Shown here: piece by piece, positions 1 through 55,279 of the stretch
Layout of the letters: each line of letters begins with the position of its first letter
Position numbering within the stretch: position 1 is the first letter of the stretch
DNA from: Tubulanus polymorphus
Lineage: Eukaryota > Animalia > Nemertea
Assembly (NCBI RefSeq): GCF_964204645.1
Contig: NC_134026.1
Location: 891,950-955,949 of the forward strand
Length of the DNA stretch: 64,000 nt
Direction: 5' to 3'
Notes under the pieces: model-generated
The model's database searches: none
Seen by the model: only the letters and a program-made list of their open reading frames with translations
What the model was told of the DNA's origin: nothing
Position numbers and translations under genes: made by a program

Positions 1-625
1 AAATCATGATGTAAATAGTTCAAATTGAGTTGCATATGAGCTATCCACGTTCCCCTCTCGACCCGTTACTCTCTCGACCCGTTCCCGTCTCGACCCTACC
101 GTACGATAGCGCCACCACAGTCGATTATTTGAACCATAACACTTGCGCGTATCGGATTCGGTTTTCACAGAACGATCAGTGACACTTCCCAACAATTTTA
201 GAACTTGATTAGATTCTTTAAACTTTTCATTGAAAGGATCGAATGAGGAAATCACCTCCAATGTGAATAAAAGTAAAAATTCAGGATGCGAAAAACAATT
301 TCCCGTCGAAATTTCCTCCCAGAATCTGGGAACAATATATTCACTGTTTAAAAGCTTTACACTAATTTCAAATGAATTACACGAGTTGAATTATTTTGGT
401 TTCTTAGAAATAAAATCAACTTTATTTAAATCCTTCAAACCATTTTTCTAAAAACGACCCAGCCCGCGGCATTTTAATTGGGACATGTTTCATTGTGCCA
501 TTTATCAATTCAAATGTAATTCATCAAATTTATGAAAAAAAAATTATTGTATAAATTTTGCAAAAAAATAAAGATCTTGTTCAATTTTTTGACGCGTTGA
601 TTTCTAGATCACGTTGTTCCCCACA

Positions 626-3190
626 CCATGTTCCCGTCTCGACCCTTCAAATCTGGCTCTACTCTCTACACAGTCCCGTGGACCCTATGTTCCCGTCTCG
701 ACCCTTCACATCTGTCTCCACTCTCTACACAGTCCTGTGGACCCTATGTTCCCGTCTCGACCCTTCAAATCTGTTTCCACTCTCTACACAGTCCCGTAGA
801 CACCATGTTCCCGTCTCGACCCTTCAAAACTGTCTCTAGTCTCTACACAGTCCCGTAGACACCATGTTCCCGTCTCGACCCTTCTAACCTGTCTCTAGTC
901 TCTACACAGTCCTGTGGACACCATGTTCCCGTCTCGACACTTCAAAACTGTCTCTACTCTCTACACAGTCCCGTGGACACCATGTTCCCGTCTCGACCCT
1001 TCAAAACTGTCTCTACTCTCTACACAGTCCCGTGGACACCATGTTCCCGTCTCGACCCTTCTAACCTGTCTCTAGTCTCTACACAGTCCCGTAGACACCA
1101 TGTTCCCGTCTCGACCCTTCACACCTGTCTCTACTCTCTACACAGTCCCGTGGACACTATGTTCCCGTCTCGACCCTTCACACCTGTCTCTACTCTCTAC
1201 ACAGTCCCGTAGACACCATGTTCCCGTCTCGACCCTTCAAAACTGTCTCTAGTCTCTACACAGTCCCGTAGACACCATGTTCCCGTCTCGACCCTTCACA
1301 CCTGTCTCTACTCTCTACACAGTCCCGTGGACACCATGTTCCCGTCTCGACCCTTTAAAACTGTCTCTAGTCTCTACACAGTCCTGTGGACACTATGTTC
1401 CCGTCTCGACCCTTCACACCTGTCTCTACTCTCTACACAGTCCCGTAGACACCATGTTCCCGTCTCGACCCTTTAAAACTGTCTCTAGTCTCTACACAGT
1501 CCTGTGGACACCATGTTCCCGTCTCGACCCTTCTAACCTGTCTCTACTCTCTACACAGTCCCGTAGACACCATGTTCCCGTCTCGACCCTTCACACCTGT
1601 CTCTACTCTCTACACAGTCCCGTGGACACCATGTTCCCGTCTCGACCCTTTAAAACTGTCTCTAGTCTCTACACAGTCATGTGGACACCATGTTCCCGTC
1701 TCGACCCTTCAAATCTGTCTCTACTCTCTACACAGTCCTGTGGACACCATGTTCCCGTCTCGACCCTTCAAAACTGTCTCTAGTCTCTACACAGTCCCGT
1801 AGACACCATGTTCCCGTCTCGACCCTTCAAAACTGTCTCTAGTCTCTACACAGTCCCGTAGACACCATGTTCCCGTCTCGACCCTTCACACCTGTCTCTA
1901 CTCTCTACACAGTCCCGTGGACACCATGTTCCCGTCTCGACCCTTTAAAACTGTCTCTAGTCTCTACACAGTCCCGTGGACACTATGTTCCCGTCTCGAC
2001 CCTTCACACCTGTCTCTACTCTCTACACAGTCCCGTAGACACCATGTTCCCGTCTCGACCCTTTAAAACTGTCTCTAGTCTCTACACAGTCCTGTGGACA
2101 CCATGTTCCCGTCTCGACCCTTCAAATCTGTCTCTACTCTCTACACAGTCCTGTGGACACCATGTTCCCGTCTCGACCCTTCAAAACTGTCTCTAGTCTC
2201 TACACAGTCCCGTAGACACCATGTTCCCGTCTCGACCCTTCAAAACTGTCTCTAGTCTCTACACAGTCCCGTAGACACCATGTTCCCGTCTCGACCCTTC
2301 ACACCTGTCTCTACTCTCTACACAGTCCCGTGGACACCATGTTCCCGTCTCGACCCTTTAAAACTGTCTCTAGTCTCTACACAGTCCTGTGGACACCATG
2401 TTCCCGTCTCGACCCTTCACACCTGTCTCTACTCTCTACACAGTCCCGTGGACACCATGTTCCCGTCTCGACCCTTTAAAACTGTCTCTACTCTCTACAC
2501 AGTCCCGTGGACACCATGTTCCCGTCTCGACCCTTCACACCTGTCTCTACTCTCTACACAGTCCCGTAGACACCATGTTCCCGTCTCGACCCTTCACACC
2601 TGTCTCTACTCTCTACACAGTCCCGTAGACACCATGTTCCCGTCTCGACCCTTCAAAACTGTCTCTACTCTCTACACAGTCCCGTAGACACCATGTTCCC
2701 GTCTCGATCCTTCACACCTGTCTCTACTCTCTACACAGTCCCGTGGACACCATGTTCCCGTCTCGACCCTTTAAAACTGTCTCTAGTCTCTACACAGTCC
2801 TGTGGACACCATGTTCCCGTCTCGACCCTTCTAACCTGTCTCTAGTCTCTACACAGTCCTGTGGACACCATGTTCCCGTCTCGACCCTTCAAAACTGTCT
2901 CTGCACTCTACACAGTCCTGTGGACACCATGTTCCCGTCTCGACCCTTCAAAACTGTCTCTAGTCTCTACACAGTCCCGTAGACACCATGTTCCCGTCTC
3001 GACCCTTCGAAACTGTCTCTACTCTCTACACAGTCCCGTGGACACCATGTTCCCGTCTCGACCCTTCTTACCTGTCTCTACTCTCTACACAGTCCCGTAG
3101 ACACCATGTTCCCGTCTCGACCCTTCTAACCTGTCTCTAGTCTCTACACAGTCCCGCGGACACCATGTTCCCGTCTCGACCCTTCACATC
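626..3190 (+). repeat. 59-bp tandem satellite array, 44 unit cores
   Basis: Unit CCATGTTCCCGTCTCGACCCTTCAAAACTGTCTCTAGTCTCTACACAGTCCCGTAGACA. The first ATG is at 628 and the last at 3165, a difference of exactly 43 x 59. Confidence 0.98.
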
Positions 3191-3769: not shown

Positions 3770-4268
3770 GTCGAGACGGGAACATGGTGTCCACAGGACT
3801 GTGTAGAGAGTAGAGACAGGTGTGAAGGGTCGAGACGGGAGCATAGGGTCCACGGGACTGTGTAGAGACTAGAGACAGGTTAGAAGGGTCGAGACGGGAA
3901 CATGGTGTCCACAGGACTGTGTAGAGAGTAGAGACAGATTTGAAGGGTCGAGACGGGAACATGGTGTCCACAGGACTGTGTAGAGACTAGAGACAGGTTA
4001 GAAGGGTCGAGACGGGAACATGGTGTCCACAGGACTGTGTAGAGACTAGAGACAGTTTTAAAGGGTCGAGACGGGAACATGGTGTCCACGGGACTGTGTA
4101 GAGAGTAGAGACAGGTGTGAAGGATCGAGACGGGAACATGGTGTCTACGGGACTGTGTAGAGAGTAGAGACAGGTTTGAAGGGTCGAGACAGGAACATAG
4201 TGTCCACGGGACTGTGTAGAGACTAGAGACAGGTTTGAAGGGTCGAGACAGGAACATAGGGTCCATGG
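3770..4268 (-). repeat. Inverted copy of the 59-bp satellite array, 9 unit cores
   Basis: GAGACGGGAACATGG cores run from 3773 to 4245 (8 x 59) and are the reverse complement of the left array. Confidence 0.97.
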
Positions 4269-19300: not shown

Positions 19301-21565
19301 AATATACGAATTGTGTTTTTGATACACCTTATTTTGTTATATACAATATTTCATTTCATATTTTCATATGCTCAGAATATCTTTGCACAAAATAGATGGA
19401 TTCATTTTCTATTTTTCGAGTTCCTTTGTCTCGTGTGCTAATTTTCCATGGACTACCACTAAATACATGATTTACTAAATGAAAAACATCTTTCACTATA
19501 ACAAATGTTTTTCTACGAGAAACTCGTTGTTGTAAAGATGTGTTTTGTTCGTCAAAATTTCGAAAAACTACATTTTGCTCGGGAGTAGAAGCGAAGTAAA
19601 CGTTTGCATAACCGTTGATGGAACCGACAGAAAAAAGTGTCCTAAAGGTTTCCTTTAGTTTATCATTTATTGTCAACATTGCGTTTGTATCTTCGGGAAT
19701 ACCGTACTTAAGTTATAACAGTTTTTTTTCTTTCTGAGTGTTGAATATCTTACATCTTATATTATTATGGTAACATACACGGGTATAAGATGCACATATG
19801 AGAGATTTAAAAGAGACTTATTTTCTATTCATTGATAAACCGCTCGCTACTGATCATAGAAAATTAGATGGTGAAAAATCCGACCGGATTTCCGAAGAAT
19901 GAGAAGTCAATAAGATTAGCTCGTTCAGGGTTTACACAGCGAGTCGAAGAGCGGCCAATTTAGCGATTGAATAGAACACTCAGTTATTTCGGCTCGGTAG
20001 TTTTTAATCTGATTGACACACACAGAAGCTCTTCACCAAACGACGGATCGGAATTAATGATAGAGCCTATGCACCTTATCCGTCTAAACAGTGGTTAAAT
20101 ACACTGTCCCGGAGCAGACGACCGAGACGAGTACAATACAACGATAGAGATGTGGCTTTTTAAAATGACTCGGTGCGCATTAATTAGTTACGTGTATCCC
20201 GATAATACCGGAACAGACGAAATGACCAAATATCACACTAAATGCATCGTAGATATTTGATTTGAAATTATACCAGACGTAATTGAGTTAAGAACAACAG
20301 AAATTATCTACCAAATTCCCAGTCATCGACACCTAGAAATTACGTATAATCCACATTCTGGCAAACAAATGGCTTTTTGACTGGATTTATATCTTTAAGT
20401 ATATTCATTCTTATATGATTCAGGGAAAGTATCTTGGATTTGTGTCAACGGTCAGTCAGAATACGATTTTTCAGATCAGAATAAGCTAAAAATTATCATT
20501 ATCCCTTTATCTGGAGAATTATGACAATATCTTTAAAATGCGTTTAAGTTTCTTTTTCAAAAGTATATAGGTGGCAATATTATTAAACCACAAGGGCCTA
20601 TATACACACATTTAAGTTATTGAAAAAATATATATTCATCGTGATTGAAATAGATGAAACGTACAAATTCTGCCATCACGAAGAATACAACATAAAAAAT
20701 TTCTTCAGGTGAAGAGGATCTAGGATAACTATCTGAGAAAATTAAGAAAAGTTTATTTCTATTTTTATGCGTAGTTCTATTTATTAAAATCATGAGGCAT
20801 CTTCGTCGATTTCTTTTGTCGGGACGAAACCGTAAATGGTTTACGTACAATCAAACTTAACTAAAAATCTGTAGATTTCTTCACCTAATGCTGTTATGAA
20901 TTAACGAAGAGAACCTCATCGCGAGAATATTCAAATATCTCATGCTGCGACAACACTAAAATGAATCTTGATGAACGCATGTTTTAACGCTGTTATTGTC
21001 AATATTTATCGCGAAATTTCACAATTCATCAGATTATTCTTTTGTCGTTCAATCACCAGCCATATTACCCGCATTCTGGTTATATTTACACCAGTACTGT
21101 TTTAGGGGACACATGTAGCTGTGCTGTCTCGGTTTTAATTCACACTAGTTTCTGATCAGATGTAATCAGACAGACTGTAGGTTCATTCTGCGGCGTCTGC
21201 GACGACGGTCCCCGCCCTCGACAGCTCATGCTCGGTTAGGTGTAAATTCGCTCTTCGCTGACTATTCATCGCCACGCTTCGTCGCCAGACCTCTGTATTC
21301 ACAACGATAATGTCACCTCCTTCTGCCTCGTGATTGACACCGATTTCAACCAATCGCGAGCCGTATTCGCCTAGAATCGGTTGCTTCAATGAATTATGAC
21401 AAATTATTCAATAGTGTAATTGTTTCTGGTGGTATATTAGGAAGATGTTGACCATTTGGGGCAACACTCATCATCTACAACTTAGATAGATACGAATTAT
21501 TTTACATGCTCTCGTCCTGCTCTGAGAAACTTCACTGGAATAAGACATCAGCGATTAGTTATAGA

Positions 21566-24500
21566 ATGGCATCAGCTATGTATGAGGAACAATTATTCGG
21601 GCAAAGATCGAGGACCTTCCCGTTAAGTCATGGACTAGTTTCAGCAAGTCATCAGTCGTTCCCGTTTGCAGGATTTCCGATGACACACGATCCTCTTGGA
21701 TTAGGTAAGTTTTATCATCAGTTTTTTCTCGAAAATTCACTTTGGAAGGTTTGGAAAGTTCTGGTCATAAGAATAAGAAATAAGTAATGTCTGGTCTGAG
21801 CTGTAATGTGTGAATCTTTTTTCAAACAATAGAAATGATTTCCTTTAATTCTCTCTTAGATTTACATATAACGTATGATATTTTATGATATTTCGTCGAT
21901 AGAATCAAATATTCAAACAAATTGACTGTAAACCAATTGATGAAGGCAATTAACTGCATCTTCGTGGTGAACCTACGTAAAATGTTGATTAGATTATTTC
22001 TGACATCTGTCACAATCTATACCCACAATTTTGCCATTACGTATATGAGAGAATAACTGTTTTGATATTTGAATGAAGAAATTCTGATGTCTAATTGATG
22101 TATTAATTTATATCTTGAATTTCAGCTCCAGGACCGCAACAATTCGGTGCGTACGCTCACATGAATATGGGTGTCACGGATCACAAACGACTTTTGCATC
22201 ACGGCTCATCGCAACAAGACGAAAACAACAAAAATATCAAAATCAAACTCGAAAACAGAGAATTATGGCAGAAATTCCACGCTATTGGAACTGAAATGAT
22301 CATTACAAAAACCGGGAGGTGAGTACATTTTTAGAGAGTTGTTTTAATGTTTTGCAATTCAAGCTCCAAATCGAGTTTTTTATTTTCTATCATCAAAATG
22401 GAAACATTTTGACTAAAACGATTATCTTCGGAAAGCTACATTTCAACTTAAAATAATCTTTTACGTTTTACATTGTGCTGATTCTAATACGTTTTATTGG
22501 AATCAATTAGCGCTTTGACCATTTAGGATTAACAAAGTCAAATGTGAATCGCCTTTTGTAGAAGAAAAGCGTTATTTGTAAATGAATTTAATACGTGGGA
22601 TTATTAGCATTTAATCCTATTTTAAGTGGATTACAAAAGCGTGTTTGCAAACTTCATCAAATTTTACATTGTGTGGTTTCAAAAAGTCATTAAAACGGTG
22701 GGCGGATTCGCGGCAAAGTTGGCAAATAAAATCTTCAGAAGCGAAACATTAGCACTTCAGCGGCACGCTTTAGCTCCTTTCATGCGTCGAGAACTCCGTG
22801 GGTCCTCAAGAACCTGTCGCTTTTGTAGTCTTATTATTGACATAGAAATGAAACCATCTTTGAAGATGCCCGTAAAAACGTTTCAATTACGAAACATTTA
22901 TAATCCACGATGCTTTTATCCGATTTTCCTTTTTTCCATTTAATCAACGATATTTCGAATATCTTTTTTAGACGAATGTTCCCGACCTATAAAGTGAATC
23001 TAGAAGGACTGGAACCACACGCTAAATACATTCTCCTAATGGATATCATTCCTGTTGATGATTGCCGGTATAAATATCACAATTCGGAATGGGTAGTGAC
23101 CGGTAAAGCGGAACCTCACATGCCAGGGCGACTGTATATTCACCCAGATTCACCAGCCTCCGGAGCTCACTGGATGAAACAAACCGTCAGCTTTCAGAAA
23201 TTAAAACTTACAAATAACAATCTCGACCAAAATGGACATGTAAGTTACAAAACTTAAAATTAATTATCTTAAGATTTCTATCATCGTTATATGTAGAATT
23301 CTTATTACATGGTTCCATTTTGTTAAATATCTAATGTTCGATCTTTTTTTTTACAGATTATCTTGAATTCGATGCACAAATATCAACCTCGAGTTCACGT
23401 AGTTCAAGCTGATGATATATTCTCGATGAGGTGGAAGTCGTTTCATACTTACGCTTTTGAGGAAACTTCGTTTATCGCCGTCACAGCATATCAGAATGAA
23501 CAGGTAAATAACTTCTAATTTACCATGAAAATATCCACATCATGTATTTATCTTATTTTGAGAAATAATTTTTGATGCAAATGGAGATTCTGTTTAAAAG
23601 ATATTTTGGTTAAATTTTCGTCAATCATATCTTATGCATTTTTCAAAATCTCTCCATCCATAAATGAAATTTTGTAGAATATTTGTTGTTTCAAGCTGTC
23701 GCCAAAACTAGCGATAAATCGGCATAAATTACCTACATTCAGAAGTAATTTTGTAAAATCCTCTCACCGTGGACAATATCGGTGTCAATTTGAAGAGGTT
23801 GTCGTGTTTCCTCCGTATTGGATCAGGTGTCGACCATAGAATCAATTATTCATTTAAATCTGTAATTATTCACACGGAGACTTAGTTTACTTCGTTTAAA
23901 CCGTTGGCGATCGTTTTAAACAATAGTCAATCTGAGATAATTCCACCAATTTCCCGAGGTAAAAGATGGCTGTAATTTAGACAGAAGTTGTCACTCAACG
24001 ATACCCCGGTTGAATAATTAAGACACCACTGTCTTTATTTTCAAAAGAAGTGTCAAAGATTTGCTGGAAGCATCTCGGTTCCGGGCTATACCGCATTGAC
24101 CAATAGAATATCTAGTATAAACTATAATGCCTATTGTACGGCACAGATTTTCAAGGCCAATCTGTCTCTCTAATTAACTCCGCGTAATTAACTAATTTTC
24201 ACACCGATCACGTAAATAGAGGTGGAACATTTTCACGGCTGAATTATGAAGTATTTTTCATAGAGGTTTTGTGAGCGTGTCAGTGTTTGTATCTTGTGTA
24301 CCCAGCGGGGCATACCATATATCGCGTTAATTCCCACAAGTGAATTTGACATTGCCATTTTTTGTTTTTCTGTCTTAAAACGCAATTAAATGGTTGAATA
24401 TTTATACATTGTAGATAACTCAATTGAAAATCGACCACAATCCGTTCGCTAAAGGATTCAGAGATAATGGAATGGCGCGAAGAGATTGTAGATTACAATT

Positions 24501-25445
24501 CAAACGGTCAATTCACGATTCATCGGATTCTGACAATGATAAAGGTAAGGTTCATTATTCAATAATTGAATATTCCTATATAAGATTTGAAAACGTTCAG
24601 TGCTATTCAAATGATACAATGAAGACTATAGTTTTGGCCCTTTGTAACTGGCTTCATGATCTTTAGCTCTGTGATTTGGGCTATTTTTCAATGTTATTTA
24701 ATTCATTGATTATTTTTCAGATTGCATTTCAATGGACAAGAAAAAAATGAGACGCGAAGACGAAGATCAGGTCGACGGACACATCACATCTACGACTTGT
24801 AACGTGGGAAGTAGCGCCGAACATTTGATAAAACAAGAACCAACTCGTCTGGAACTGTCACCCGCCGGAACCAGTCCCGGTAGCGAGGGTCGTCTGAACC
24901 ATTCATCGTTAACAGACAGCGAGAAATCATCCGACCATTTGAACAGTAGCGGCGATGATCTAGGATCGTGTATCATCGGCAAATCTAGTACATCGATTAC
25001 TCAACCGCTTAGGCGTCAACCAAATCAGTTACTGTCACCGCAATGTCAGTATCTACCGCAAAATTCCTGTTCGTACTTCCAGCATAGCTCGTCACCGTTT
25101 CAGTTCCGAGGAGCCGATCAGATGTACTATCCTCATCCGCCTGCTCCTAATTGCTCGAATAATAGTTTTTTACCGGCGGTCACGACGGCCGGCGGATTTC
25201 TACAGCCTGTTCCCAGTATGAAACTACCAGCTGCTTGTCATATGTCTTCTCCAAGCGCTAATGCGTGTTCGATGACCAATACTTCACCTCATCACGGCAG
25301 CAGTCCGCCGTCTGGGTACGCGCTGACTGCAGGCTCCCAGTCGCACACTTCCATGTCGTCTTGTACTTACGTTCAACCGAATCAACATTATTCGATGATG
25401 AATTTGACGAGTAATCCACATTTCACGACCGGACCGCTCGTCTAG
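21566..25445 (+). CDS. T-box transcription factor, most similar to the Tbx6/16 subfamily (6 coding exons)
   Basis: Exons 21566-21704, 22126-22318, 22972-23239, 23357-23503, 24415-24544 and 24721-25445 join in frame via GT-AG introns. They encode a complete T-box: [23 protein letters not shown]...[14 protein letters not shown]...LKLTNN...[10 protein letters not shown]...[28 protein letters not shown], followed by a Ser/Pro-rich C-terminus. An alternative in-frame ATG lies at 21506. Subfamily assignment is uncertain. Confidence 0.96.
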
Positions 25446-27533: not shown

Positions 27534-28957
27534 TTACACTGACATAGAAACTGCTAAACATAAGAAAAATGATAGGTATATAATGCTGTGATTTGTAGAT
27601 GATGGTTCCTCAGTTATTAAATAAGATGTCAATAAAGGAAGCTTCCCATAAAATATACACATGAAAATGCCAATATCTAATGTATCCTACCTATAGTACG
27701 GTACACATTTGTAAGGCATTACGAAACATAAGAAAGGTTTCGGACTTTTTTGAAAGTACTACCAGATTCTAGTACACGTGGGTACCTACATATTTTATGG
27801 ATTGACTCCAATATTGTTTGGAGTAAAATACTCCCATGACAATCAATATCATACATACTCAAATATTCCTAAATACTCACAGAGTTCAATCGTTAAATAT
27901 TTACAGTTGTTTATCCCACGGAAGAATCCATGTTTATCAAACGCATTTCAGTTCAATATTGAATACTAGAACAGCACAGTTACGATGTAACATAAATTCA
28001 CACGATGTCTGTGAAAATGTTTGTTCTATTGTACTCAATTTTTGTAAACTAACGAAATAATATATCTATACGACGATATAATTGAATATTTTCATGGCGA
28101 ATGCGATATTTTTTTGAAGTCAAGAAACATTCTACACATCAGAATCTTTCTGCAACAACGGAATCGTGAAACTGTTTCTATTAAAAGTGAAATAAAATTG
28201 AAATCAAATGTATAAAAAACACATTCAGTATTTACAACATGAACACGTAAAAAACAATCGAATCATAATTTTCACCACGATGTTGATGATTATTACGAAG
28301 AAGCTACAGCAAATCAATTTGATCGAGGACTGGAGTCGACACGCACAGAAATTGTAAATACTAATGATCTCCAAGTCAGAGAACCGGCATGCATTATAGC
28401 TGTTTGAAATGTTTAAACAATTTTGTGGCATCAAGTTCAGTCATGGACTCGTCATTTGAGTGGTTTTCTAACTTATTATTCGCTGTTATTGGATTTTGTT
28501 TCAGTGAATGATTATATATTTGAAAAGAACGACACATTTTTCACTCGATGTATCAATTCTAACTATAGTCGCGATCACGCGTGAGACGATTTGGCCTGGT
28601 TTAAACAGGCCTGAACCAGACCTGAGTAAGATTTGGTGTGTGGCTAATATAAAAGCGTGTTCACACGTAAATCACTCATTGCCATTATCAAAATGCTGTA
28701 ATGGTAAGTCACTTCCAGAACATTTAACATTTGTATGTGTATTAATTTGTCCTGCACTCAAACACTTTTGATTGGGCCAAATTTAGCCTGTATCAAACAG
28801 ACACCAGTCGGAGCAGTTGGCCTGCGCCAAATTTTGCCGCATTATGAAGAACTGTTCTATGCGGTAACGGACAGGAACTCTCTCATAGATCAGCGTTTAT
28901 TGTGATTATTTGCAGCCTTCGTATATTGCAACATCACTGACTGTGTTATAAATGCAC

Positions 28958-28998: not shown

Positions 28999-29036
28999 TC
29001 TGGTGGCAGCAATGAATCCTGCACATTTAGTTCACA

Positions 29037-32000
29037 TTATTCCTGCTGTAACGCTTGCTTTACACAAGCCTCCAATAATTCGTCGACTTGCTCCGAGTCA
29101 GATTCTGGATCGATATCGAAATCCTACAAAAAAAACACATTTCATATATTACAGGTACTATAGTAATCTTGGGCGTGGCTTAGGTTCCTATCAGGGACCA
29201 ACTATCAACTGATCAGGAAAACTAGATATTCGATAGTGTACTAATACAGTCCTAGTCCTTCAGAAAAAGACTTCCATATTAATTCAAGAAACATCAACAT
29301 TTTTGAATCGCGGACTAACGAGTAATTCGCGAAGAGTCATGAAAATACTGGACAAATTTGTGAATTCCCATGGGGTTAATTCATAGTCAGTATAACCATG
29401 ACTCTATCCAGTGCCATACTTTCGGATAATCAGTTTTTCATGCGGGCATCACAAACACTGTTCAAGTTTCGAAATGGAAATCAGACATGAAGCACTGCTG
29501 GTAAAATCCACCTGTTCTGACACCTTCATCAGGTATAAACCATTGTCCTCGATCCGCAATCTTCAAACAAAGCAGCTCATTTGACAAGATAATAATAGTA
29601 GAAAATGGTCGTCGTTTTTAAACAGTTCTGATAGAACAGGACCCGGGTGCTGACCCGAGGCAACGCGATGCGACCGTCCGGCATAACGCAGCCGGCACTC
29701 GTGCGACCGTCTACATCAATCACAAACCTACACTGTAACAGTGACATGAAATCTGCTAAGAGTTTTCAAGATGCACCACTTGTCACCTAATTGTCCGCGA
29801 TATCGATACATCTCATAAGATTTAACTGTCAACAGCTCCTTCGGTGTAACGAGTTAAACAGTATTATAGACACCGCGATCGCTTCAGGATAAACTTGAGG
29901 TCGCAATTCATACAAGTTAACTGTCCATTAAAACGGAATTATCTAAGTTGTTTTGATGTAAACATTGTCGCCATAGATTCTCTAACTATGTAAATTGAGA
30001 AATCTGCGACTAGTCATCGAATTAGACTTAACAATTTTTTACTCGCAAATCACGGGTGCCTTGGAATAAGGTCGATTGAATCCAGACTGATCCTAAATCA
30101 GCAAATATATGAAATTATAATTCAGATCTAGTTATTCGAAGATGAGCCATTAAAAAAGTTACGATTAGATTAACGGTTTCCTAAATGGTCGACCGAACCT
30201 GTTTAATCAGGCCATGATTCACAATTTGAAATATCAACCGACACGTCGTCAGGGTCCAACTCTCTCGGGGCGTGTCTCTAGCTCATTGTGGACGGCCACT
30301 TTGTGAATGAAAAACATGAAAGCCGTGATTTTTCACGGTCGAAAACGACATCAAATTACTCGATATTTCATGATATTATGTTGTTCTCTATTATGGTTTC
30401 GGAGAAAGGTGGCAAATTGTCTGTAACAGCAGCATCTGTTCATTCGATTTATAAGTGTTTAATATCGCTAAACGCCACTAATGTAATAAAGCGATACTTG
30501 AAAAGTGAAACGGCAATTATTCTATCCATCTCGCAATTACCACAATGAATTTCAACATTCTATAGACTGTATATGAAGTCAAAAGCAACGTTTTTAGCAA
30601 CAATTTTTAGTGAACGTTACTATTTGATGATGAGATATCTATAGAGAATCACACAATAATAACGAAATAATAATAATAATAATGTTTCCTTGAACTAGTA
30701 TTCATTCAACGTTTCGACTATATCCTAATAGTCTTCTTCAGGAATACTGTATTCCTTGAGCTAATAGTTTATTCAACGTTTCGACTTTATCTTAATAGTC
30801 TTCTTCAGGAATATGACTATAAGGATATAGTCGGAATGATGAATAAACCATTTGCTTAAGGAAACATTTTCGGACTTAATATCATTTTTCCGTTGTTATT
30901 GTGGGATTCTCAATAGATTTCCCTAAATTAGCATTTTAATTTTGACGAATTTCGCCCTAGTAAGATGCAAATTTCTAGCTACTTCACGCGCGAGCGTTTC
31001 GTAGCGAAAAGCGCGAAATAACTTCACAAGTACTTCGCGAAAAACCCATTAAAATTTGGTGCCAAGTTTCATCAGAACCGGCGTGAACCGTCGCCCGAAA
31101 CGGCGAACGTTTAGCGACGACGAGCCCGGTTTCAAATAATTAGAAAATAAATGATTCGGTATTTAAATGCGGCTGGCGTTTGTTATTTCCCTCGTCGGAA
31201 TTATACGAGGTGAATTTTGCATTACAAATTTTTCGCCAAAATCTATGGAATCTATGGAGACCGTAACGGAGTCATCAGTAATGACTGCGATGTTTTCGAC
31301 GTCTCGTAAAAGATTGTCTACGATTCCCCAGTCGACGTCGTAATTGAAAAGCACCAATAGGAACGCTGCGTCGTCGAGATGAGCTAACACCTTCGATGTA
31401 ACGTTCATTTTTCGGCGAGTATGAGCGTCATCACGAACGACGAAGGGGCTCGAGGTGTTAATTCATCGATACCGCGCGGGATAGACGACCGAATAATCCT
31501 CGGTGAATAAACAACATCTATGACCTTAACGTGTCGCGATTTGATGGAAACGATGCAAGTTTTCGCGGGTGAAATGGAGCTCAGCTGCAGCTCAGTCGAC
31601 AATGTGTGGACCGAGCTGTAAATGAGCGGTGAACATGTTTCTAGCGCGCCAAACCCGGAGAAAATCAGTTTTATGTGCCGGCTCGCGAGTTCGGCCGCAC
31701 ATAAACGGCGTTAAAACAACGGAACGCAGGCTCAGCTAGTCGTGCCCGGGCGTGTTAAATTAGCCAGCTGGGGCAGCGCGATGACTACTGCGAAAATACA
31801 TGTTTCATCGTTCTAATGGACAGTGTTTATTCCCTGAAGCTCGACTCATTTTACAATGAGATACATTTACAAATTGTACTGTAGATATTTCTACTCCCGA
31901 AAAAAAAACTGGTGTCTACGAAATGGAAAAAATACGTCAAACGGTTTTTTGTACTCACTTCGTTGATAGTTTTCAGCAATTTCGCGATCAGTTTTCGAAG

Positions 32001-35000
32001 TTGCGATAGTTTATCTTTTGCTTGATCAGATTCTTTTTTCTTGGTTAAAGCTTCCGCTTGGAAATTACTGACCAACTGGAGAGAAAAAACAACAACAGAA
32101 TCAAGGAGATTGTATTAGAGACGTGGCTGTGACAGGTCATTCAAACGCTGCAGGTCTCATCACGGTTTCATTCTGTTTAATTCAGTTGGTTCATAGCATT
32201 TGAGTCAAAATATTCCATCAGTTTTACTTTGAATTGCAGGTTTGTAATTCAAGTCTGGTTTTACTGGTCCCATTAGTTTTCTGATAGTTCTCTCCTATCC
32301 TCTCCCCACACTCATCAAACTTGCCTCAAATGGTGTCTCTAATAGCGCTTTGTAAACCAGATTAGAGTAATTTGACATCAAAAATAGAAGTTTCATAAAA
32401 TATGTACAATAAATTTCTCTGATTTTGAGAGTATTTTGATATTTTCAGGAGAATTAAAAAGCTTTAAAAAAGATTAGAAACTACTCTTAGATAGCAGTCA
32501 CAGTCAGGTCTCAGGTTTTGAGGGAGGTTAGAAAACCGTCAGGGATGAAATGTCCAATAATTTCTCCTACCTTTCTGAGACCTTTTTCATAATGATCGAA
32601 GAAATCATCCAGCGGAAACTGAGCGAGTTCTTGTAAACTGAGACCGGAAATCATTTCTTTCTCCATCGTCCATTCGGGAGGCAGAAAATATCGTAAACAC
32701 GTCCTGAAATATCATAACATAGCAGCAGGATGAAGTGGTTTTATAAGTGGTGAAAATATACCGCGCTGATTGTATTGGAATTACTGGTTTCCCTTCATGC
32801 TTCTATTTGCTATGTTTTTGGGCACCTTGATTGGTTTAGTTTAGTTAAGTTTAGTCCTGTCCTGTGGCATGGTGGATATGGAGTTTGACTCATAACCGAG
32901 AAATTGTGGGTTCGAATCCTACAGGTAGGACACATATCAGTGCCGGGTCGACTCACTGATTTAACTACAAAAGTCGTGCCTGGCAAAAATCTTCAACACG
33001 ATGAAGTTAGCCAGTAATAGGTAGAACTAGTTTATTTGACAAACTCATCAATTAGATACAAGGCAAGTTACAAAGAAAAATACATAGAATATGAACTAAA
33101 ATCCTATGAATGTATCTGGTAGAAATGTAATATAAATAGTTGATTCAAACATACCTGTATCCATCAGCTATTTCATCGTGATGAGTATTAGATGTAGATG
33201 ATGATGATGGAGTTTCTGTTATTTCTGCTGCCGAAGATGAAGTCGATTCTACGAGTGATTTCTCAGTTAGTTTCTTCTCACCGGTTATCTTCAAATCTTT
33301 ACTTTCTCGATCGAACCTACGAATAAAAACTTTCATCGATGTAAAATGTGCATTTAGACTTCATAAAACATTTTTAAATAAGTGTTGAGTGTAAAACCCA
33401 CTGCGAAAAAAAAAATGACAAGTTTTAAAACATCAATAAATTAATCAAAAATTCTGAATTCTAGAACAGCTGTTGTGAATGGTTTCATTATCCATCAGTG
33501 TTAATATGGTCTCTTGGACATCAAAATGTCCTTTTAGGATGTGAGAAGTTCATCACCCCTGGATCTAAACCTCTAGTATTAATTCACGGCGAATTTCTAC
33601 CTCTATTGCTTGAAATAAGTATTTACAAAATTGAGATTTTAATTTTACTTCCATTTCAAAATTCAGAAAATTCGATCAGAAAAACCACAACAATGTCGAT
33701 TCCACTTCTCAAAAAAATGTCTATCGGTACAAAAGATAAATTGCTTCAGGGACTTGCTCTGATATTGCAGTTAACCACTTCAAAACACTGGACAGAAGCC
33801 GCTAAAAATCAACTCCACGACAAAAAAAGACACATTTATCTTCGTTGTAGAAACTCGCTCGCTCGCGTGCCCCCGTTACAGGTAGAATGGGCATATGTTG
33901 AAACATCGACTAATAGTTGGAAATTACGGTGCTACCATCACACATCTGCTGCACTAGTAGGAGGCTATATTACGCGTGCCCGCGGGCCATACATTAATAC
34001 CGGTAATTTATACCAGGTCTGAACAAACACACGTCAAAACTTTCAATAGCCAAAAACACACACTGATTCTCTGACGAGAATCGAGCCTGCCTGCCTGCCT
34101 GTCTGCCTGCCTGTCTGTTTAATTTTTTCTTAGCCAAGCCTTCGAGTTGCGCATAATTAGAGGGGCCACAAATAAGATTTTTTTGACAGTCTAGACTATG
34201 CATGATGATATTTTACTGGTCTAGTAGAATTGTTGATGAGATCCAATCTATGTCCATACAAAAACATATATCGGCTAAACCACAGTTTATCATTGATACA
34301 ATGGTTTTCCTCATTTACCGATGGAATGATGGACTAGTGATAAATTGTCAAGTTGATGGTTTGTTATGGGACCGCATTGATCCATAAATCGTTGTCCTTC
34401 AGAATCTAGAGAACACATTCAAACTACATTATCTAGAACGTTCTAAATTTAGCCCATTCCAATTTTTGGCGTTAGTGTGAATGCGGCTTAGATCGTGATG
34501 AGACATTTTCAAGCTCGTAATTGCAGGTCTTACTAATGGAAATAAACTGTTAAACCGTAACGCATAAAACCGTCAGAAACCACAATTAATACACGGATAT
34601 ATCACAGCCAACGATACTTTTAATAAAAGCCCGAATGACATGCATAAAACATGCGAGTAATTCGACTGCATTCCATGTAAATGAATAGAATAGATTTTGA
34701 AGACTGGTCATTATTTCATTAAACGCACTACGAGTCAATATTCCCCGGAACCGTTGTCATCGGAGAGCACAGATGGACGAACATAGATCACGATTCCCCG
34801 AGCTATGATCAGAACTACAGTGATGTAATAAATACATGATTCTATTGACAGAGTTGATTCAATTACAGCCCGCGATGACCTTTACTCAATACCCATACAG
34901 GACGACATTGATCAATCACTATTAATCGTTATCTAATTCTATTTTGAAAAGTAATTTCCGATAATTCACCGAGACTCTAATCATCCTCAACTGCATGTGT

Positions 35001-44000: not shown

Positions 44001-47000
44001 GGAGGAGACGGTGAATCCGGCGGCTGAGTACGACGAGATCTTTGAGGAGGCGGCGATGACAAAAACGACTGAAATAAATATGATAATGAAATAATTACCG
44101 GTGTTCAAAACATGAAAAGTTAAACCTGTAGACCTGGTTTCTCTTATTGTAGTCTTTTTTACCAAAAACTAGAGTAATTTGACTTTGAAAATGGTAGTTC
44201 AATTGAAAGTGAACAAGAAATTATCCTCATTTTGATGGAATTCCGATATTTTCGGCAGCAGCTGAGTTCTTATAAAGCATAGAAACTAGTTTCAAATACT
44301 AGTCATAGAATCGCTAAATTTTGTTGATATTTTGATGATAATAATGATCAGGCATATATGCCGCTAAACCAGACTACAGATATGCTTCCATGAATTCTCT
44401 ATACCTTGCCAGTGGTTTGTCCAGTTTCTGACTGCGATGAATCAGATCGGTATAAATCACGTGAAGACATCACTGTCTTCGTTTTCTTCACTTTCTCAAG
44501 TTCATCTTGGCTTCGTTTTATTTTCTGAAAAAGCGAACAAAAATAGCAGTAAAACGAACGTACGAATAGATTTCATATTCATTTCTTGAAATAATCATTT
44601 TATGTACGTCTTCTAAATCCTTAGCTTTTTGTTCGGCCGTTTTGATTTCCTTTTTCAGCACACCTTCTTGGATATTCATTTTTTGTTCCGCAGTTGAACA
44701 TCTGACAAACAAGAGAAAGGAATTCATTTCATTGATTTCAAGTCATAGAATTATAACCGGAGATGCCTATCTATTATCACATTACGTAGATGAGTTCATG
44801 CTGTAGAGAGCAACTTATCATGTTTATGAATAGACATGTGAAGTGTATATTGTTTTGATTAATTTTCCGAGAGCAGATTTCTCGAAATCTATCAAAGTTG
44901 CTGACGATGGTTTTCTCGTTTATACCAGGAAACAGCTTTGCTACCTGGTAAAAACTGGTATCATACCAGTTTTAACATATATCGTTTTGATACGTACTTA
45001 TTATGTGCAGGATCAGGATTCATCGAACAGATCCAATGTTCTGGAAATTCGCGACCGACATTGTTAGACGAGAATGGTAATATACGCCATTTGAGACATT
45101 CATCTGAAATTCATAAAACCACATCGTTAATTCAACCAGTCGTAAAAAGCATTCGGTTTCATCCTCGAAAAGATCAAATTCGGATAAACTTACCGCATTG
45201 TAGAGTAATATTCACTTGTGTTGCTCGTTTTCGTAAGAATTTTGGATCCTGCGAAGGGGGATCTTTCCAATTGGCGCTGACGTAGCCGAAGTTCTCCCTG
45301 AAAATCGATCAATTTTGAAACATTAATCACAGATCACATCAAATCTCTATCAATTCAACGAGAAATAATTATAGAATCTATCGACAGCGTTACATGTTCT
45401 CACCAAAACTTCGTTACTCCTTGTTGGACTGAAAAACAAAATGAAAATCTTAGCGTAATTGTATCATGAAATCATAATTACAGTCGAATACATGAATTTG
45501 AAATATCTAGAATGTTTTCACTTTCTGGATTATTGTAAACACTACACACCGATACCAACATCCTTCCAATATTGCACCATGTGTTCACCCATTGCTCGCA
45601 TTAAATGTCGAAATTCTTTTGCGTCTGCGAAATCTTGTTTATTGTGCGTTGGTTCCAGTACAAGATACGGCACATCGACGACACCTACAACTCCGCTACA
45701 AAACCTACAACATATAATACATCATTTCCATCAATCAAAGCTGAAATATTACAGGATAAATGAATATATTACTTGTAGTAATGATTTTACTGACTGATTT
45801 TAAAGTATAGTTAAAACTGAATATAGTTCAGGCCCCAGCTTCACAAAAAGGTTTAACTCTTAAATCGATTTAACTTAATCCCTTTTGTGAAACTGGGCCC
45901 TGGGTTTAAGTTGCTCAAAAGTTGGTTAGAGTTGAATGAAATGCTATCGAAACAATTGAAATTGCTCTGCTCCTTCGGTATTAGGACCCAGTTCTTAAGT
46001 ACCGAGTTCACATTTGACTCATTGAAAATGAACTGATTTTATCTTGTGTTAACTCTGAACTCACAACTTTTGAAGCCCAAATTTTCATATACCTCTTTCT
46101 CTCAGGTGTTACCTGTTTATGAATATATAAGATATACTTACACACCGCCGTCTGCTTGAGGTCCGACTTTCTGATACATTTTAATCATTCGACTACAGTT
46201 ATAAACGAACACTCCGTCCTGTCGTCTGTTGTCTATATTTATACCAAATATCAAATTCAATGTTTTCGGTTCCTTTAACGCTCTGAAAATAGATACCAAA
46301 CATTATATCTATTATTCGAATGTAAAAGAAGCAAGAATTTATAATTTCAACGTTAGAATTCTTACCGGTTTTTGCGTTCAGCTAATTGTTTCTTTAGATT
46401 AGCCTCTCTCCTCAATTCAGCCGATGTTGTTTGGGCGTTCCGAAGGTCAGCCTTATAAATACAATGAACATTCATTTGAAATACAGTGAGAAAGCGGTAC
46501 TAAAGATGAAAACTTCAAGACCCAACTTACTCTTTGTTCTTTAGTTCCTCCCGACAGACATTTTTGCGATAAATTCCTAGATTTACTTTCTGCTTCTCTG
46601 GCCTTATTTTCAGCTAAAAACGAAAATAAAACACAAAGCTACATGAATTTCTGTAGAGATATAACAAGTCTAGAAATGTGCAACTTTTATAACAACAGAC
46701 TCACCAATTCTGGCCTCATCTTTAGCTTTAGCCGCATCATTTTCTGACCTGGCTTTAAACCGACTAGACGCAAATTTATACAACCTAGGTTTATAGAGGC
46801 AATTCGCTAATCGCTGCGTGCGAACTTTTTTGCCTTGTATATAGAGTTTCATCCTCGGATCGACGTATAACATTGATGTATAAGCTCTGAATGATTTACG
46901 TTCAGGAACCAGTCTGAAATATTCAATTAGAATAAATGAATGAAACGAAGGGGAAACCTAGCTAGCTTTATTTCTAACACAGGGTCAGATTGATGAGCTC

Positions 47001-52668: not shown

Positions 52669-54577
52669 TCATATCTCCTGAAATGAGAAAGTATTCGCTC
52701 AAGCAATCAATTCTTAGGACAGTAGGACACAATGAAGATGCCCGCAATAGTTACCTCTGTTTGAACTTGCACGTATTTCACTTTTGAAGGTCGACCTCTG
52801 ATAACAGCATAGCAGAAAATTGTGACCACCATCACGAACAGAAAGTAACTTGTATGCATCAAATGCAAATTGATCACAGAACGATCGTGCTGTAAGATAA
52901 AATCAGATAATTTGAGAGGAATTCTCTGCATATTCAGTAATAATGATCATAATGATGAGGCTTATACAGTGCTCTGTGCAGCCAGGCAGCTCTCAACAGC
53001 GCTTTATAGATATGCTTTCATTAATTGGTTATTATATCACCCTATTATATTATCTCATACTGAATCAATGATCTCTCCCTGATGACATCCAACCAGCTAT
53101 TCAGTGCTCGGACAGATACTCAAGCCAGATACTCCTGAGAGGAGAGAGACATGAACAAGTATCTTCTTGCCTGAGGAAACTTCTGTGACAAACAGCAAAT
53201 GAACCCATGACTTGGCATGATAGAGTGGAACACTCCAACCACTCACCCATGCCGCTCCAGACATCCTGGAGTGTAACACTCTAACCACCTGTCTGGCTTC
53301 CTAGAAATCGAATGCTCCAACCACTCACCCATACAGCTGGATAAAATAGACTTTTAAATGAATTCAAAAATATCATACTTACTAATGATAACATCACAGT
53401 TAATGCAGGGTTTATGTTGTAATGCACTGAGATTTTAGTCTGTTTTCTGCAGCGGTAATATTTGAAGAATGAATAATCTTTATGAGCCTCGACGTGGGCG
53501 TGATAGTATTCTCCTGTCTCATTCATACCGCGACACATCTGAGGTCTCCTTAAATATCAAACAACACAAAAATCATTCAGTATGTCTACACTGACTTCCA
53601 CATTCAATCATATTTGTAAGTTGAATCTTACCCATATTTTGATACTGGGAATACTGCAGGAGAAGCCTGGAAATGCACACAAGTATATATCTTAACCGGT
53701 TCGCATGTACCCTCTTCATTACACTGCGTTAGATTCCAATTATACGGTAATGAAAACGTAATATTGACGTCTTCCTGGGCTGCAGCACCTGCAAATAAAC
53801 CGATCGATTATCATTTGAGGTCAGTGAATTCACGCTGCATGAATAACGAACTATCACAAACCTTTTAGGCCGAGCTGTTGCCCCTTAACAACTCCGTGTA
53901 AATGTGTTACATTATTTCGAATACGAAGAAAATCTGTTTTAGGATGAACCGTTAAAAGGAGCGACACGGAATAATTCCTGAAGATAAAAAAAAGAAATCA
54001 TGAAAGTAGGTCCTGTGTTTGTAGATAAGGCTCACAGCTGAGAGGTGGTGGATTCGAACCCCAGTGAACCTATGGATAAATGCTTCAGGGGCCACCGGGT
54101 TATAATGTGAATTATTCTAATTGAAGAGATTTCCTAAGTACTGGAAAGAAAGTTGTCTTTAAGCCAAAGGGAATCGAAATATTTACCTAGATGTTTCATA
54201 AGTTAATATCCCATCATCATTTTCATCCGGGGCTGAATTTTCTTTCACTTGAGGTGGTGAATTCACGACAGGCGCGTTGTGCTCGGAATCCTTACCAGTT
54301 ACACAAAATTCCAACCGCGAGAAGCTCTCGAGAAAAACATTCCAATCCTAAAATTTGTATTTAGATTTATTAGATAAACGATGGTAAGGATATCTGGTTG
54401 TGATGATATTGAAAGCTTTACCTCGGCAAAATTAGGATCCTTTATTTCATTAACTTTGATTATGTAAGACAATGTTAACAGTACAATGGCGAACAATGAT
54501 ATGCTGATCATGAATAACACAAGTGGCGGTCGACTCGTCACAAAACCCTTCACATTTTCTACAGGAGTAAGAGCCAT
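52669..54577 (-). CDS. TMEM248: Transmembrane protein 248-like
   Basis: MALTPVENVKGFVTSRPPLVLFMISIS...DWNVFL...NVTHL...NITFSLP...ASPAVFPV...DRSVINLHLMHTSYFLFVMVVTIFCYAVIRGRPSK across ~7 exons, matching recalled TMEM248 motifs. The final tiny exon (EI*, 52669-52677) is uncertain. Confidence 0.92.
52937..53340 (-). mobile_element. tRNA-derived SINE with duplicated head in a TMEM248 intron
   Basis: The minus strand has repeated A-box-like heads (ATGGGTGAGTGGTTGGAG twice, plus GTGGTTAGAG) and a degenerate B box GGGTTCA. It ends in an L2-like tail AAAGCGCTGTTGAG...GCACTGTATAAG...TTATTA. Confidence 0.6.
54010..54110 (+). mobile_element. Degenerate tRNA-derived SINE fragment
   Basis: B-box-like GGATTCGAACCC preceded by a weak A box, in an intron. 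Confidence 0.35.
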
Positions 54578-55279
54578 TTTGAATTCTCTACCCGCTGAAA
54601 AGAAAAGGTTTCGCATATAATAATAATCGTTCTATTCTAGAGAACAGGCCCAAAACAGTAGATAAAATTCATATAGCGCCAATTTCAGTTCAAAGCCACA
54701 AGGCACTCCCTACTAGAAATGATTACTAAACCACGGCTGGAAGTGACGAGCGAACAGATAAGATATAAGTTCTGATTTGAATGCTGAGATGTTGTCAATT
54801 GTTGAATTATTGGTGATTATTCATGAGGTTTAATTTTATCGAATGAGCCATGAATGACACCAGGGAAATGTACAACGTGTCATAATAGTTATCCAGATAC
54901 ACTTGACTTAACGAAGCTGATACAGACTAAGCATTTCGCAATTAATTGTAAAATATCGTAAAACATAATCAGATAAAACCAGTCATCAAATGATAAACTT
55001 AAAGCTCACTATCTCTTTATTACTTACTGCCTTATAGCATGCGTGACACTGAATACGATAGGCAGGAATTTTGATATAAACAAATATTTATTTCACGAAA
55101 GCTCAAAACGTCAGCCATTTTCCTCCATCTTAATCTCGATGATTTCGGCTTCCATGTAATAAATTTGTTTTCAGAAGTTAAATAATTTCATAAATTAAAA
55201 CTAATATTCTTGAAAGATTTAAGAATATTAAAGAATGAATTATTTTTAACCGAATTTGATGAATCAAATGACTAAAATA

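What the first reader, a model, noticed from the sequence alone, without database searches (positions are those of the whole stretch)
30703..30813. Tandem pair of minimal hammerhead ribozymes on the sense strand of the last MORC2 intron
Seen: two 67-nt-spaced copies of UAUUC-CUGAAGA-A-[stem II hairpin]-GAAA-CGUU-GAAU on the minus strand, which is the MORC2 pre-mRNA strand. Stem III is reduced to the palindrome ACGU and cannot close in a monomer. Established: minimal type I hammerheads with palindromic stem III are characteristic of Penelope-like element repeats and are proposed to cleave as dimers. Inference: the two adjacent copies could pair to form an intramolecular double hammerhead cleaving after GUU. 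That would cut the MORC2 pre-mRNA before its terminal exon or release a ~67-nt RNA. The opposite-strand third copy (30812-30845) lacks CUGAAGA and has GGAA instead of GAAA, so only the host-sense copies look intact. MORC2 is itself a transposon-silencing factor (HUSH partner in mammals), which makes the setting intriguing.
Basis: partly seen in the sequence, partly recalled or inferred. Interest (0 to 1): 0.85.

Follow-up and report, generated by a model that had tools for sequence, protein, structure and literature searches.

The report
Penelope hammerhead relic in MORC2 intron
Two tiny self-cutting RNA motifs do sit on the sense strand of the last MORC2 intron of a ribbon worm, but they belong to a repeat with well over a thousand copies in this genome, likely left by a Penelope-type jumping gene, and a mirror-image copy transcribed just ahead of them is predicted to fold them shut, so they are likely an inert relic and not a switch on MORC2.

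Summary
Two minimal type I hammerheads, 67 nt apart, lie on the sense strand of the last intron (31958-29124) of the MORC2 gene of the ribbon worm Tubulanus polymorphus; the annotated protein maps 1010/1010 residues to the window. The functional inference is not supported. Raw DNA reads put the unit at about 1,800 copies per haploid genome (a lower bound), with tandem and inverted joints common elsewhere. The 'third copy' is a ~108-nt inverted arm, 5'-truncated exactly at the junction with copy A, which is the known Penelope layout of inverted truncated copy, partial tandem and tail. It is transcribed first and turns the ~290-nt insertion into a long hairpin (z = -12.8). That raises the predicted cost of a cleaving fold from 3.4 kcal/mol (isolated pair, one core) to 17-28 kcal/mol. 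Both copies carry helix-weakening departures from the commonest family letters. In another organism's contig the same motif follows a frameshifted Penelope-type GIY-YIG remnant. No Penelope ORF was linked in this genome, and no RNA data tested cleavage. Verdict: an ordinary new member of a known kind, likely inert. Interest 0.15.

The parts
30770..30813 (-). Minimal type I hammerhead, copy A: stem I 30813-30809/30774-30770, core 30808-30802, extra A at 30801, stem II 30800-30783 (fifth pair broken, A.A), GAAA 30782-30779, palindrome 30779-30776, predicted cut after U 30775
   Evidence: departures from the commonest family letter at 30801, 30792, 30787
30703..30746 (-). Minimal type I hammerhead, copy B: same layout shifted by 67, 6-bp stem II, U.G wobble at the end of stem I, predicted cut after U 30708
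   Evidence: family letter differs at 30734 in 96% of reads
30740..30756 (-). 7-bp hairpin at the A-B junction that captures the stem I 5' strand and C3-U4 of copy B
   Evidence: paired 0.65-0.85 in the isolated pair, 0.91 in full context
30814..30921 (+). Inverted, 5'-truncated copy of the unit plus tail, head to head with copy A. It comes first on the pre-mRNA and is antisense to either hammerhead. The repeat family ends near 30911.
   Evidence: loose ends at 30911 and ~100-fold read depth at 30867-30917
30634..30702 (-). Tail behind copy B, homologous to the outer part of the inverted arm, with a (TTA)n-like expansion
   Evidence: blastn 30634-30921 against its reverse complement, 68.8% over 308 columns, E 5e-23
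29124..31958 (-). Last intron (2,835 nt, GT-AG) of the MORC2 gene, which hosts the insertion
31959..32075 (-). MORC2 penultimate coding exon (residues 944-982 of P0001)
29040..29123 (-). MORC2 terminal coding exon (residues 983-1010 of P0001); AATAAA at 28901 further down

Best explanation
The ~290-bp stretch 30634-30921 is one copy of a high-copy repeat in the last MORC2 intron, likely a dead end-fragment of a Penelope-like retroelement, whose two sense-strand minimal hammerheads are predicted to stay folded shut by the element's own inverted arm and so likely do not cut the pre-mRNA. Steps: (shown) an inverted 5'-truncated copy, two tandem hammerhead units and a tail, joined head to head at 30813/30814; (shown) the unit has about 1,800 copies per haploid genome and occurs in tandem and inverted joints elsewhere; (inferred) it arose by Penelope-type retrotransposition that copied only the terminal repeat (pLTR) end; (predicted) during transcription the arm pairs first with copy A and later with copy B, so the two palindromes never meet in a cleaving fold; (inferred) the intron is spliced out with the hairpin intact and the copies drift neutrally.
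For: Depth of raw DNA reads is 6,132 over copy B and 2,996 over copy A against a flank mean of 5.5 (23 bins). The flank depth implies a 350-Mb genome, against 358 Mb by flow cytometry. 9,734 reads at the two equivalent positions give about 1,760 copies; 1,390 reads carry tandem joints and 131 carry inverted joints among the 15 of 178 joints shown. The layout matches Craig et al. 2021 (PMC8557442, passages). The motif meets the min-HHR traits of Cervera and De la Pena 2014 (PMC4209133, parts 1-2 of 4). The same motif in L001-L003 (3 near-identical contigs of one locus in another organism) begins ~75 nt behind a frameshifted GIY-YIG remnant: 13 of 39 scanned relatives carry Pfam GIY-YIG and 1 of 39 carries RVT_1. 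Hairpin -100 kcal/mol, z -12.8, 0 of 200 shuffles. Cleaving-fold penalty: 3.4, 8.4 and 11.3 kcal/mol alone; 20.5, 17.0 and 28.4 in context. Published min-HHR dimers cleave poorly, 8 of 9 Xenopus dimers gave no product, and the anole Poseidon hammerhead cleaved only with its protein.
Against: No Penelope ORF was linked to this family in this genome: no assembly is held, and tblastn of 40 Penelope-like proteins against the window gave 0 hits at E<0.05. The GIY-YIG link is from another organism and one locus. Both sense copies keep every core letter while the inverted arm has lost 3 of 8 in GAAACGUU; chance alone gives the intact cores with p about 0.13-0.20, from an incomplete list of differences. 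Nearest-neighbour folding omits tertiary energy, Mg2+, proteins and kinetics. The insertion seems to be present in two samples (depth at the locus-specific tail in X5 and X1), so it is not visibly a private polymorphism. The copy number counts partial matches at 80% or more from one run, and it may include arrays.
Confidence: 0.86

Rival explanations
1. Same origin, but the pair cleaves at a low level in vivo (most likely core A cutting after 30708) when helicases, ADAR editing or kinetics loosen the hairpin, with no effect on mature MORC2 mRNA.
For: The cores are intact; the one-core fold costs only 3.4 kcal/mol in the isolated pair; GUU is listed among cleavable NUH triplets (PMC3138052, passages); the arm is only ~80% complementary.
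Against: The cost is 17-20 kcal/mol more in context. The arm pairs with copy A as soon as copy A is made (0.77). U17 lets A14 pair across the dimer (0.34-0.44), which extends stem III into the core.
Confidence: 0.08
2. One reading: a functional intramolecular double hammerhead that cuts the MORC2 pre-mRNA before its last exon or releases a 67-nt RNA, and so tunes MORC2.
For: Sense strand, last intron, two intact cores, nested fold possible. The CPEB3 ribozyme shows that an intronic ribozyme can tune its host mRNA (PMC10919898, abstract and passages).
Against: The double fold costs 11.3 kcal/mol alone and 28.4 in context. The junction hairpin blocks core B. The polymerase would reach the acceptor, 1,584 nt on, in about 0.4 min at mammalian rates. 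With ~1,760 copies, a MORC2-sized gene holds at least one by chance about 10% of the time (uniform spread assumed; a sense tandem pair is rarer than that). The annotated protein includes the terminal exon.
Confidence: 0.03
3. The unit is an independent tandem mini-retrozyme or minisatellite (period ~67-69 nt) that no longer depends on a full Penelope element, and this locus is a dispersed dimer of it.
For: About 250 tandem joints per haploid genome. Retrozyme consensus lengths of 51-972 bp are reported (bioRxiv 10.64898/2026.07.22.740005). Tandem joints also appear in contigs of X4 and X8.
Against: Thousands of reads run on into other family-like sequence on both sides of the motif (loose ends), and the inverted arm with tail is a Penelope signature. 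The same preprint derives such retrozymes from Penelope pLTRs, so this differs from the best explanation mainly in name.
Confidence: 0.03

Closest known systems
Minimal hammerheads (min-HHR) in the pseudo-LTRs of metazoan Penelope-like elements (Cervera and De la Pena 2014, PMC4209133)
   Same: Type I layout, no helix III loop, palindromic 15.2-16.2, extra nucleotide between 9 and 10.1, G10.1-C11.1 pair, short helix I (5 bp), thousands of genomic copies, nearby copies on opposite strands.
   Different: Units only 67 nt apart instead of flanking a ~3-kb ORF; no ORF at this locus; helix II is 4-6 bp instead of the 7-8 bp of the Schistosoma families. No paper on nemertean hammerhead ribozymes was seen in the listing of one search ('hammerhead' + 'nemertean', 3 papers, listing only).
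Complex insertions of endonuclease-bearing Penelope-like elements: partial tandem + adjacent inverted 5'-truncated copy + 30-40 bp tail (Craig et al. 2021, PMC8557442; Frangieh et al. 2024, PMC11167929)
   Same: Inverted truncated copy abuts the 5' end of a tandem; tail-like extension of about 40 nt beyond the unit end; no target-site duplication found.
   Different: The tail is present on both arms here; nothing of the ORF body is left.
Non-LTR retrozymes (Cervera and De la Pena 2020, PMC7229834; bioRxiv 10.64898/2026.07.22.740005)
   Same: Non-coding tandem repeat with a type I hammerhead in each unit; about 44% of Xenopus tropicalis copies overlap introns.
   Different: Classical ones are 150-450 nt with canonical hammerheads and are shown as circular RNAs; here the unit is 67 nt with a minimal hammerhead, and no RNA was shown.
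Domesticated intronic ribozymes: amniote RECK/CTCL/DTNB hammerheads (review PMC6155905) and the CPEB3 HDV-like ribozyme (PMC10919898)
   Same: Sense strand of an intron of a conserved gene.
   Different: Those are conserved across species, and the RECK and CTCL hammerheads keep tertiary contacts. This one is a member of a high-copy repeat, has no helix III, and has an antisense arm in cis; its conservation is untested.

Membership tests
Penelope-type minimal hammerhead (min-HHR) | Conserved core CUGANGA ... GAAA ... NUH with helix I and II | tested here: met
   Both copies. The triplet is GUU.
Penelope-type minimal hammerhead (min-HHR) | Helix III reduced to a palindrome, needing a dimer | tested here: met
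   ACGU with no loop; monomers fold without stem III
Penelope-type minimal hammerhead (min-HHR) | Extra nucleotide between 9 and 10.1, and a G10.1-C11.1 pair | tested here: met
   A at 30801 and 30734 (U in 96-97% of family reads); G-C closes stem II
Penelope-type minimal hammerhead (min-HHR) | Large family of genomic copies | tested here: met
   About 1,760 per haploid genome from one raw-read run
Penelope-type minimal hammerhead (min-HHR) | Self-cleavage as a dimer | not testable with these tools
   Folding predictions only
Penelope-like element (endonuclease-bearing) | RT + GIY-YIG ORF linked to the repeat | tested here: inconclusive
   Absent from the window (0 hits); no assembly to search; the same motif follows a GIY-YIG remnant in L001-L003 of another organism
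Penelope-like element (endonuclease-bearing) | Partial tandem with an adjacent inverted 5'-truncated copy | tested here: met
   Junction at 30813/30814
Penelope-like element (endonuclease-bearing) | 30-40 bp tail beyond the pLTR | tested here: inconclusive
   A ~40-45 nt extension ends near 30911, but it cannot be matched to an ORF start without the parent element
Non-LTR retrozyme | At least two consecutive tandem units with complete hammerheads | tested here: met
   TRF period 67, 2.1 copies; the preprint's -5 kcal/mol filter is passed by copy B (-8.4) and narrowly missed by copy A (-4.7) on my 51-nt windows
Non-LTR retrozyme | Expressed as self-cleaved linear and circular RNA | not testable with these tools
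   No run on record as RNA holds the stretch
Domesticated intronic ribozyme (RECK/CPEB3 type) | Folds and cleaves as a monomer in its pre-mRNA context | tested here: not met
   No helix III; predicted penalty 17-28 kcal/mol in context. This is a prediction only.
Domesticated intronic ribozyme (RECK/CPEB3 type) | Conserved at the orthologous intron across species | not testable with these tools
   No related animal genomes can be searched; two samples of the same species label seem to share it

The most novel reading that the evidence does not exclude
A Penelope-protein-gated counter-defence: the element's own RT-endonuclease protein, or family RNA pairing in trans with the looped-out copy A, refolds the intronic hammerheads and cuts the pre-mRNA of the silencing factor MORC2 only when the transposon is active. 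The anole Poseidon hammerhead cleaves only with its protein, and the palindrome of copy A is predicted to be 55-70% unpaired in the full hairpin, so this is not excluded.
Probability: 0.03. Interest if true: 0.85.

Novelty: new member of a known kind. Interest (0 to 1): 0.15.

Why it matters
As found, it matters little. It adds a nemertean family of Penelope-type minimal hammerheads with a short (67-69 nt) tandem period. It also warns that an in vitro test on the two copies alone could give a positive result that the natural context is predicted to abolish. If the protein-gated reading were true, it would be a transposon-encoded ribozyme that turns down a host silencing gene in step with transposon activity. 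It would also make the open question of what Penelope hammerheads do in vivo directly testable. That MORC2 silences transposons in ribbon worms is not shown; it is known for mammals (abstracts).

Tried and rejected
Rfam: no hammerhead model matched, so membership rests on manual numbering.
Whole-genome search: no assembly held; copy number came from read depth.
RNA evidence: no RNA holder listed. Of 4 runs laid on 29005-33400, X7 and X6 laid 0 contigs and X4 and X8 covered only repeats and one exon piece. None bridged the last intron, so splicing, expression and cleavage were not tested. Summed contig depths (640,732 against 40 in X1) were not used as a copy number.
Viral contigs: 0 matches to the motif.
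L002 remnant: Pfam 0 of 9 frames, word-indexed homolog search 0 of 9 candidates, PDB 0, ESM Atlas gave no answer. Only the full phmmer scan placed it; P0023 was left out of the Pfam scan (39 of 40).
Target-site duplication: longest flank match is 6 nt and not at the ends.
Selection on the cores: not significant.
Intronic polyadenylation at the AAUAAA in copy A (30773): one of 12 such hexamers on the sense strand of the gene, inside the predicted hairpin region; not pursued.
Lunse et al. [quoted passage not shown] Their data, and supplements I did not open (min-HHR alignments of PMC4209133, closed bioRxiv tables), may already list this motif variant.
Earlier findings: none in this genome or by sequence.

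Full report
Observation. The minus strand carries two copies of the motif at 30772-30811 and 30705-30744, 67 nt apart. None of 100 dinucleotide shuffles of the window gave two matches. In hammerhead numbering, copy A has stem I at 30813-30809 with 30774-30770, the CUGAAGA core at 30808-30802, one extra A, stem II closed by G-C, GAAA at 30782-30779, the palindrome ACGU, and U17 at 30775. Copy B is the same shifted by 67. Rfam does not detect them.

Host gene. A search with the reading frame over the penultimate exon returned one protein, P0001, named 'ATPase MORC2-like [Tubulanus polymorphus]' by its sources; this is a palaeonemertean ribbon worm. All 1010 residues map exactly to the minus strand in 26 coding exons, 49819 to 29040, and the last intron is 31958-29124. 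Its best solved relative is human MORC2 (E 3.7e-270). The predicted cuts lie 1,183 nt behind the donor and 1,584 nt before the acceptor.

The element is larger than reported. The opposite-strand copy starts at 30814, the base next to copy A, and runs to about 30921. It mirrors copy B and the tail behind it (68.8% over 308 columns, E 5e-23; alignment). It lacks the CUGAAGA core because it is cut short at the junction. The insertion is therefore about 290 bp: inverted truncated arm, unit A, unit B, tail. Craig et al. 2021 describe this layout for Penelope-like elements: partial tandems, an adjacent inverted 5'-truncated copy and a 30-40 bp tail (PMC8557442, passages). I found no target-site duplication and no further copy in the window.

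Copy number. No assembly is held, so I laid public data on 30000-31500 at 80% likeness (4 of the 10 listed runs). In the raw DNA run X5 the mean depth of 23 flank bins is 5.5, which implies a 350-Mb genome; flow cytometry gives 358 Mb for the Atlantic species (PMC8468679, passages). Depth is 6,132 over copy B and 2,996 over copy A. The 9,734 reads at the two equivalent positions give about 1,760 units per haploid genome, a lower bound from one run. Among the 15 of 178 joints shown, 1,390 reads go back by 52-60 places (tandem units, about 250 per genome) and 131 change strand. Tandem and inverted arrangements are thus a property of the family. The family reads differ from this locus at the extra nucleotide (U in 96-97% of reads, A in both copies here) and in stem II of copy A (30787, 62%; 30792, 94%); 30% differ at the stem I wobble of copy B (30703). 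Both copies keep all core letters, which chance allows at about 0.13-0.20 (the list of differences was cut). Reads cover the locus-specific tail in X5 as well as X1, so the insertion seems shared by two samples.

Link to Penelope. The motif meets the traits listed by Cervera and De la Pena 2014 (PMC4209133, parts 1-2 of 4). An exact pattern scan found 0 viral contigs and 3 metagenome contigs, near-identical copies of one locus in another organism. There the motif is single and starts about 75 nt behind two frameshifted pieces (L002 5630-5925). These match 40 proteins at E<=0.001. Of 39 scanned, 13 carry Pfam GIY-YIG and one (P0024) carries RVT_1; its C-terminal part aligns to both pieces. That ties this motif type to the 3' end of RT-GIY-YIG elements. 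It does not prove the link in the worm: the 40 proteins gave 0 hits in the window.

Can it cut? A double hammerhead can be drawn without pseudoknot. In the isolated pair (30698-30816) the fold in which core A cuts after 30708 lies 3.4 kcal/mol above the ensemble, the fold in which core B cuts after 30775 lies 8.4 above, and both together 11.3. The asymmetry comes from a 7-bp hairpin at the A-B junction that holds the stem I strand of B. U17 also lets A14 pair across the dimer (0.34-0.44). In context the picture changes. The arm is transcribed first; it pairs with copy A as soon as A is made (0.77) and with copy B once the tail is made (0.66-0.67). The whole element folds at -100 kcal/mol, z -12.8, 0 of 200 shuffles. 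The penalties become 20.5, 17.0 and 28.4 kcal/mol at 37 C and larger at 15 C. Published behaviour points the same way. Min-HHR dimers cleaved weakly. 8 of 9 Xenopus dimers gave no product (bioRxiv 10.64898/2026.07.22.740005, parts 1-3 of 5). The anole Poseidon hammerhead cleaved only with its protein, and no RNA-seq reads ended at its site (PMC11167929, parts 1-2 of 4). From my own recall, not from a call: slow cleavage inside an intron often does not prevent the flanking exons from being spliced.

The MORC2 setting. With about 1,760 copies spread evenly, a gene of this span holds at least one about 10% of the time, and this intron 1.4%. A sense-strand tandem pair is rarer, but the gene was noticed after the fact. 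About 44% of Xenopus tropicalis retrozyme copies overlap introns, though introns are depleted relative to intergenic DNA. MORC2's part in HUSH silencing is established in mammals (abstracts) and was not shown for this animal.

What was not tested. No listed run is on record as RNA, and a second laying gave no contig across the last intron. Expression, splicing and cleavage remain open, as do orientation bias and conservation in other species. Eight earlier notes of this scan on other genomes describe similar intronic pairs and reach a similar reading; they are unchecked AI notes and are not counted as support. Two primary papers could not be read.

Verdict. A real feature, correctly named and placed, but an ordinary member of a known kind: a likely Penelope end-fragment whose hammerheads are predicted to be locked by its own inverted arm (0.86). 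Low-level cleavage without effect 0.08; functional MORC2 switch 0.03; independent mini-retrozyme 0.03. Interest 0.15.

Noticed in passing
window 623-3186 and 3770-4265: 59-bp tandem satellite, 43.5 copies at 93% matches, and a second array of 8.4 copies that reads as the same unit in the opposite orientation.
   Followed up: no
window ~21000-25440 (+): T-box gene (Pfam PF00907; TBX2/3-like by my recall) convergent with MORC2, with the 3' ends facing.
   Followed up: partly
window 30920-31800: CpG-rich (o/e 1.4-2.1) stretch in the same last intron, at single-copy depth as far as laid (to 31500); it could be a regulatory element of MORC2 or the T-box gene.
   Followed up: no
window 30735-30733 and family reads: The family's usual U at the extra position makes A9-U-G10.1 read AUG. 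In anole Poseidon the ORF starts at the beginning of stem II. Both copies here have A instead, so the AUG is absent.
   Followed up: partly
window 30749-30747: CAG directly precedes stem I of copy B. In Drosophila virilis Penelope an intron end maps to the 5' end of helix I, so this may be a vestigial acceptor in the sense orientation.
   Followed up: no
run X8: This run of unrecorded kind has a contig limited to a MORC2 exon (33206-33317) and hammerhead-family contigs with tandem and inverted joints, all with the family letter at 30734. It may show that other copies of the family are transcribed.
   Followed up: partly
window 32364-32503 (second copy 44170-44308) and 32854-33030: Two further dispersed repeats in MORC2 introns, with raised contig depth.
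   Followed up: no
window 54302-54631 (-): Exon with a Pfam TMEM219-family match (PF14940, E 1.8e-11), upstream of MORC2 on the same strand.
   Followed up: no
L002 3680-4477 and 6993-7514: Fragments that look like a hAT-type transposase and a TBC1D19-like exon near the hammerhead (my recall; Pfam gave 0 of 9). The locus looks like animal DNA inside metagenome assemblies.
   Followed up: partly
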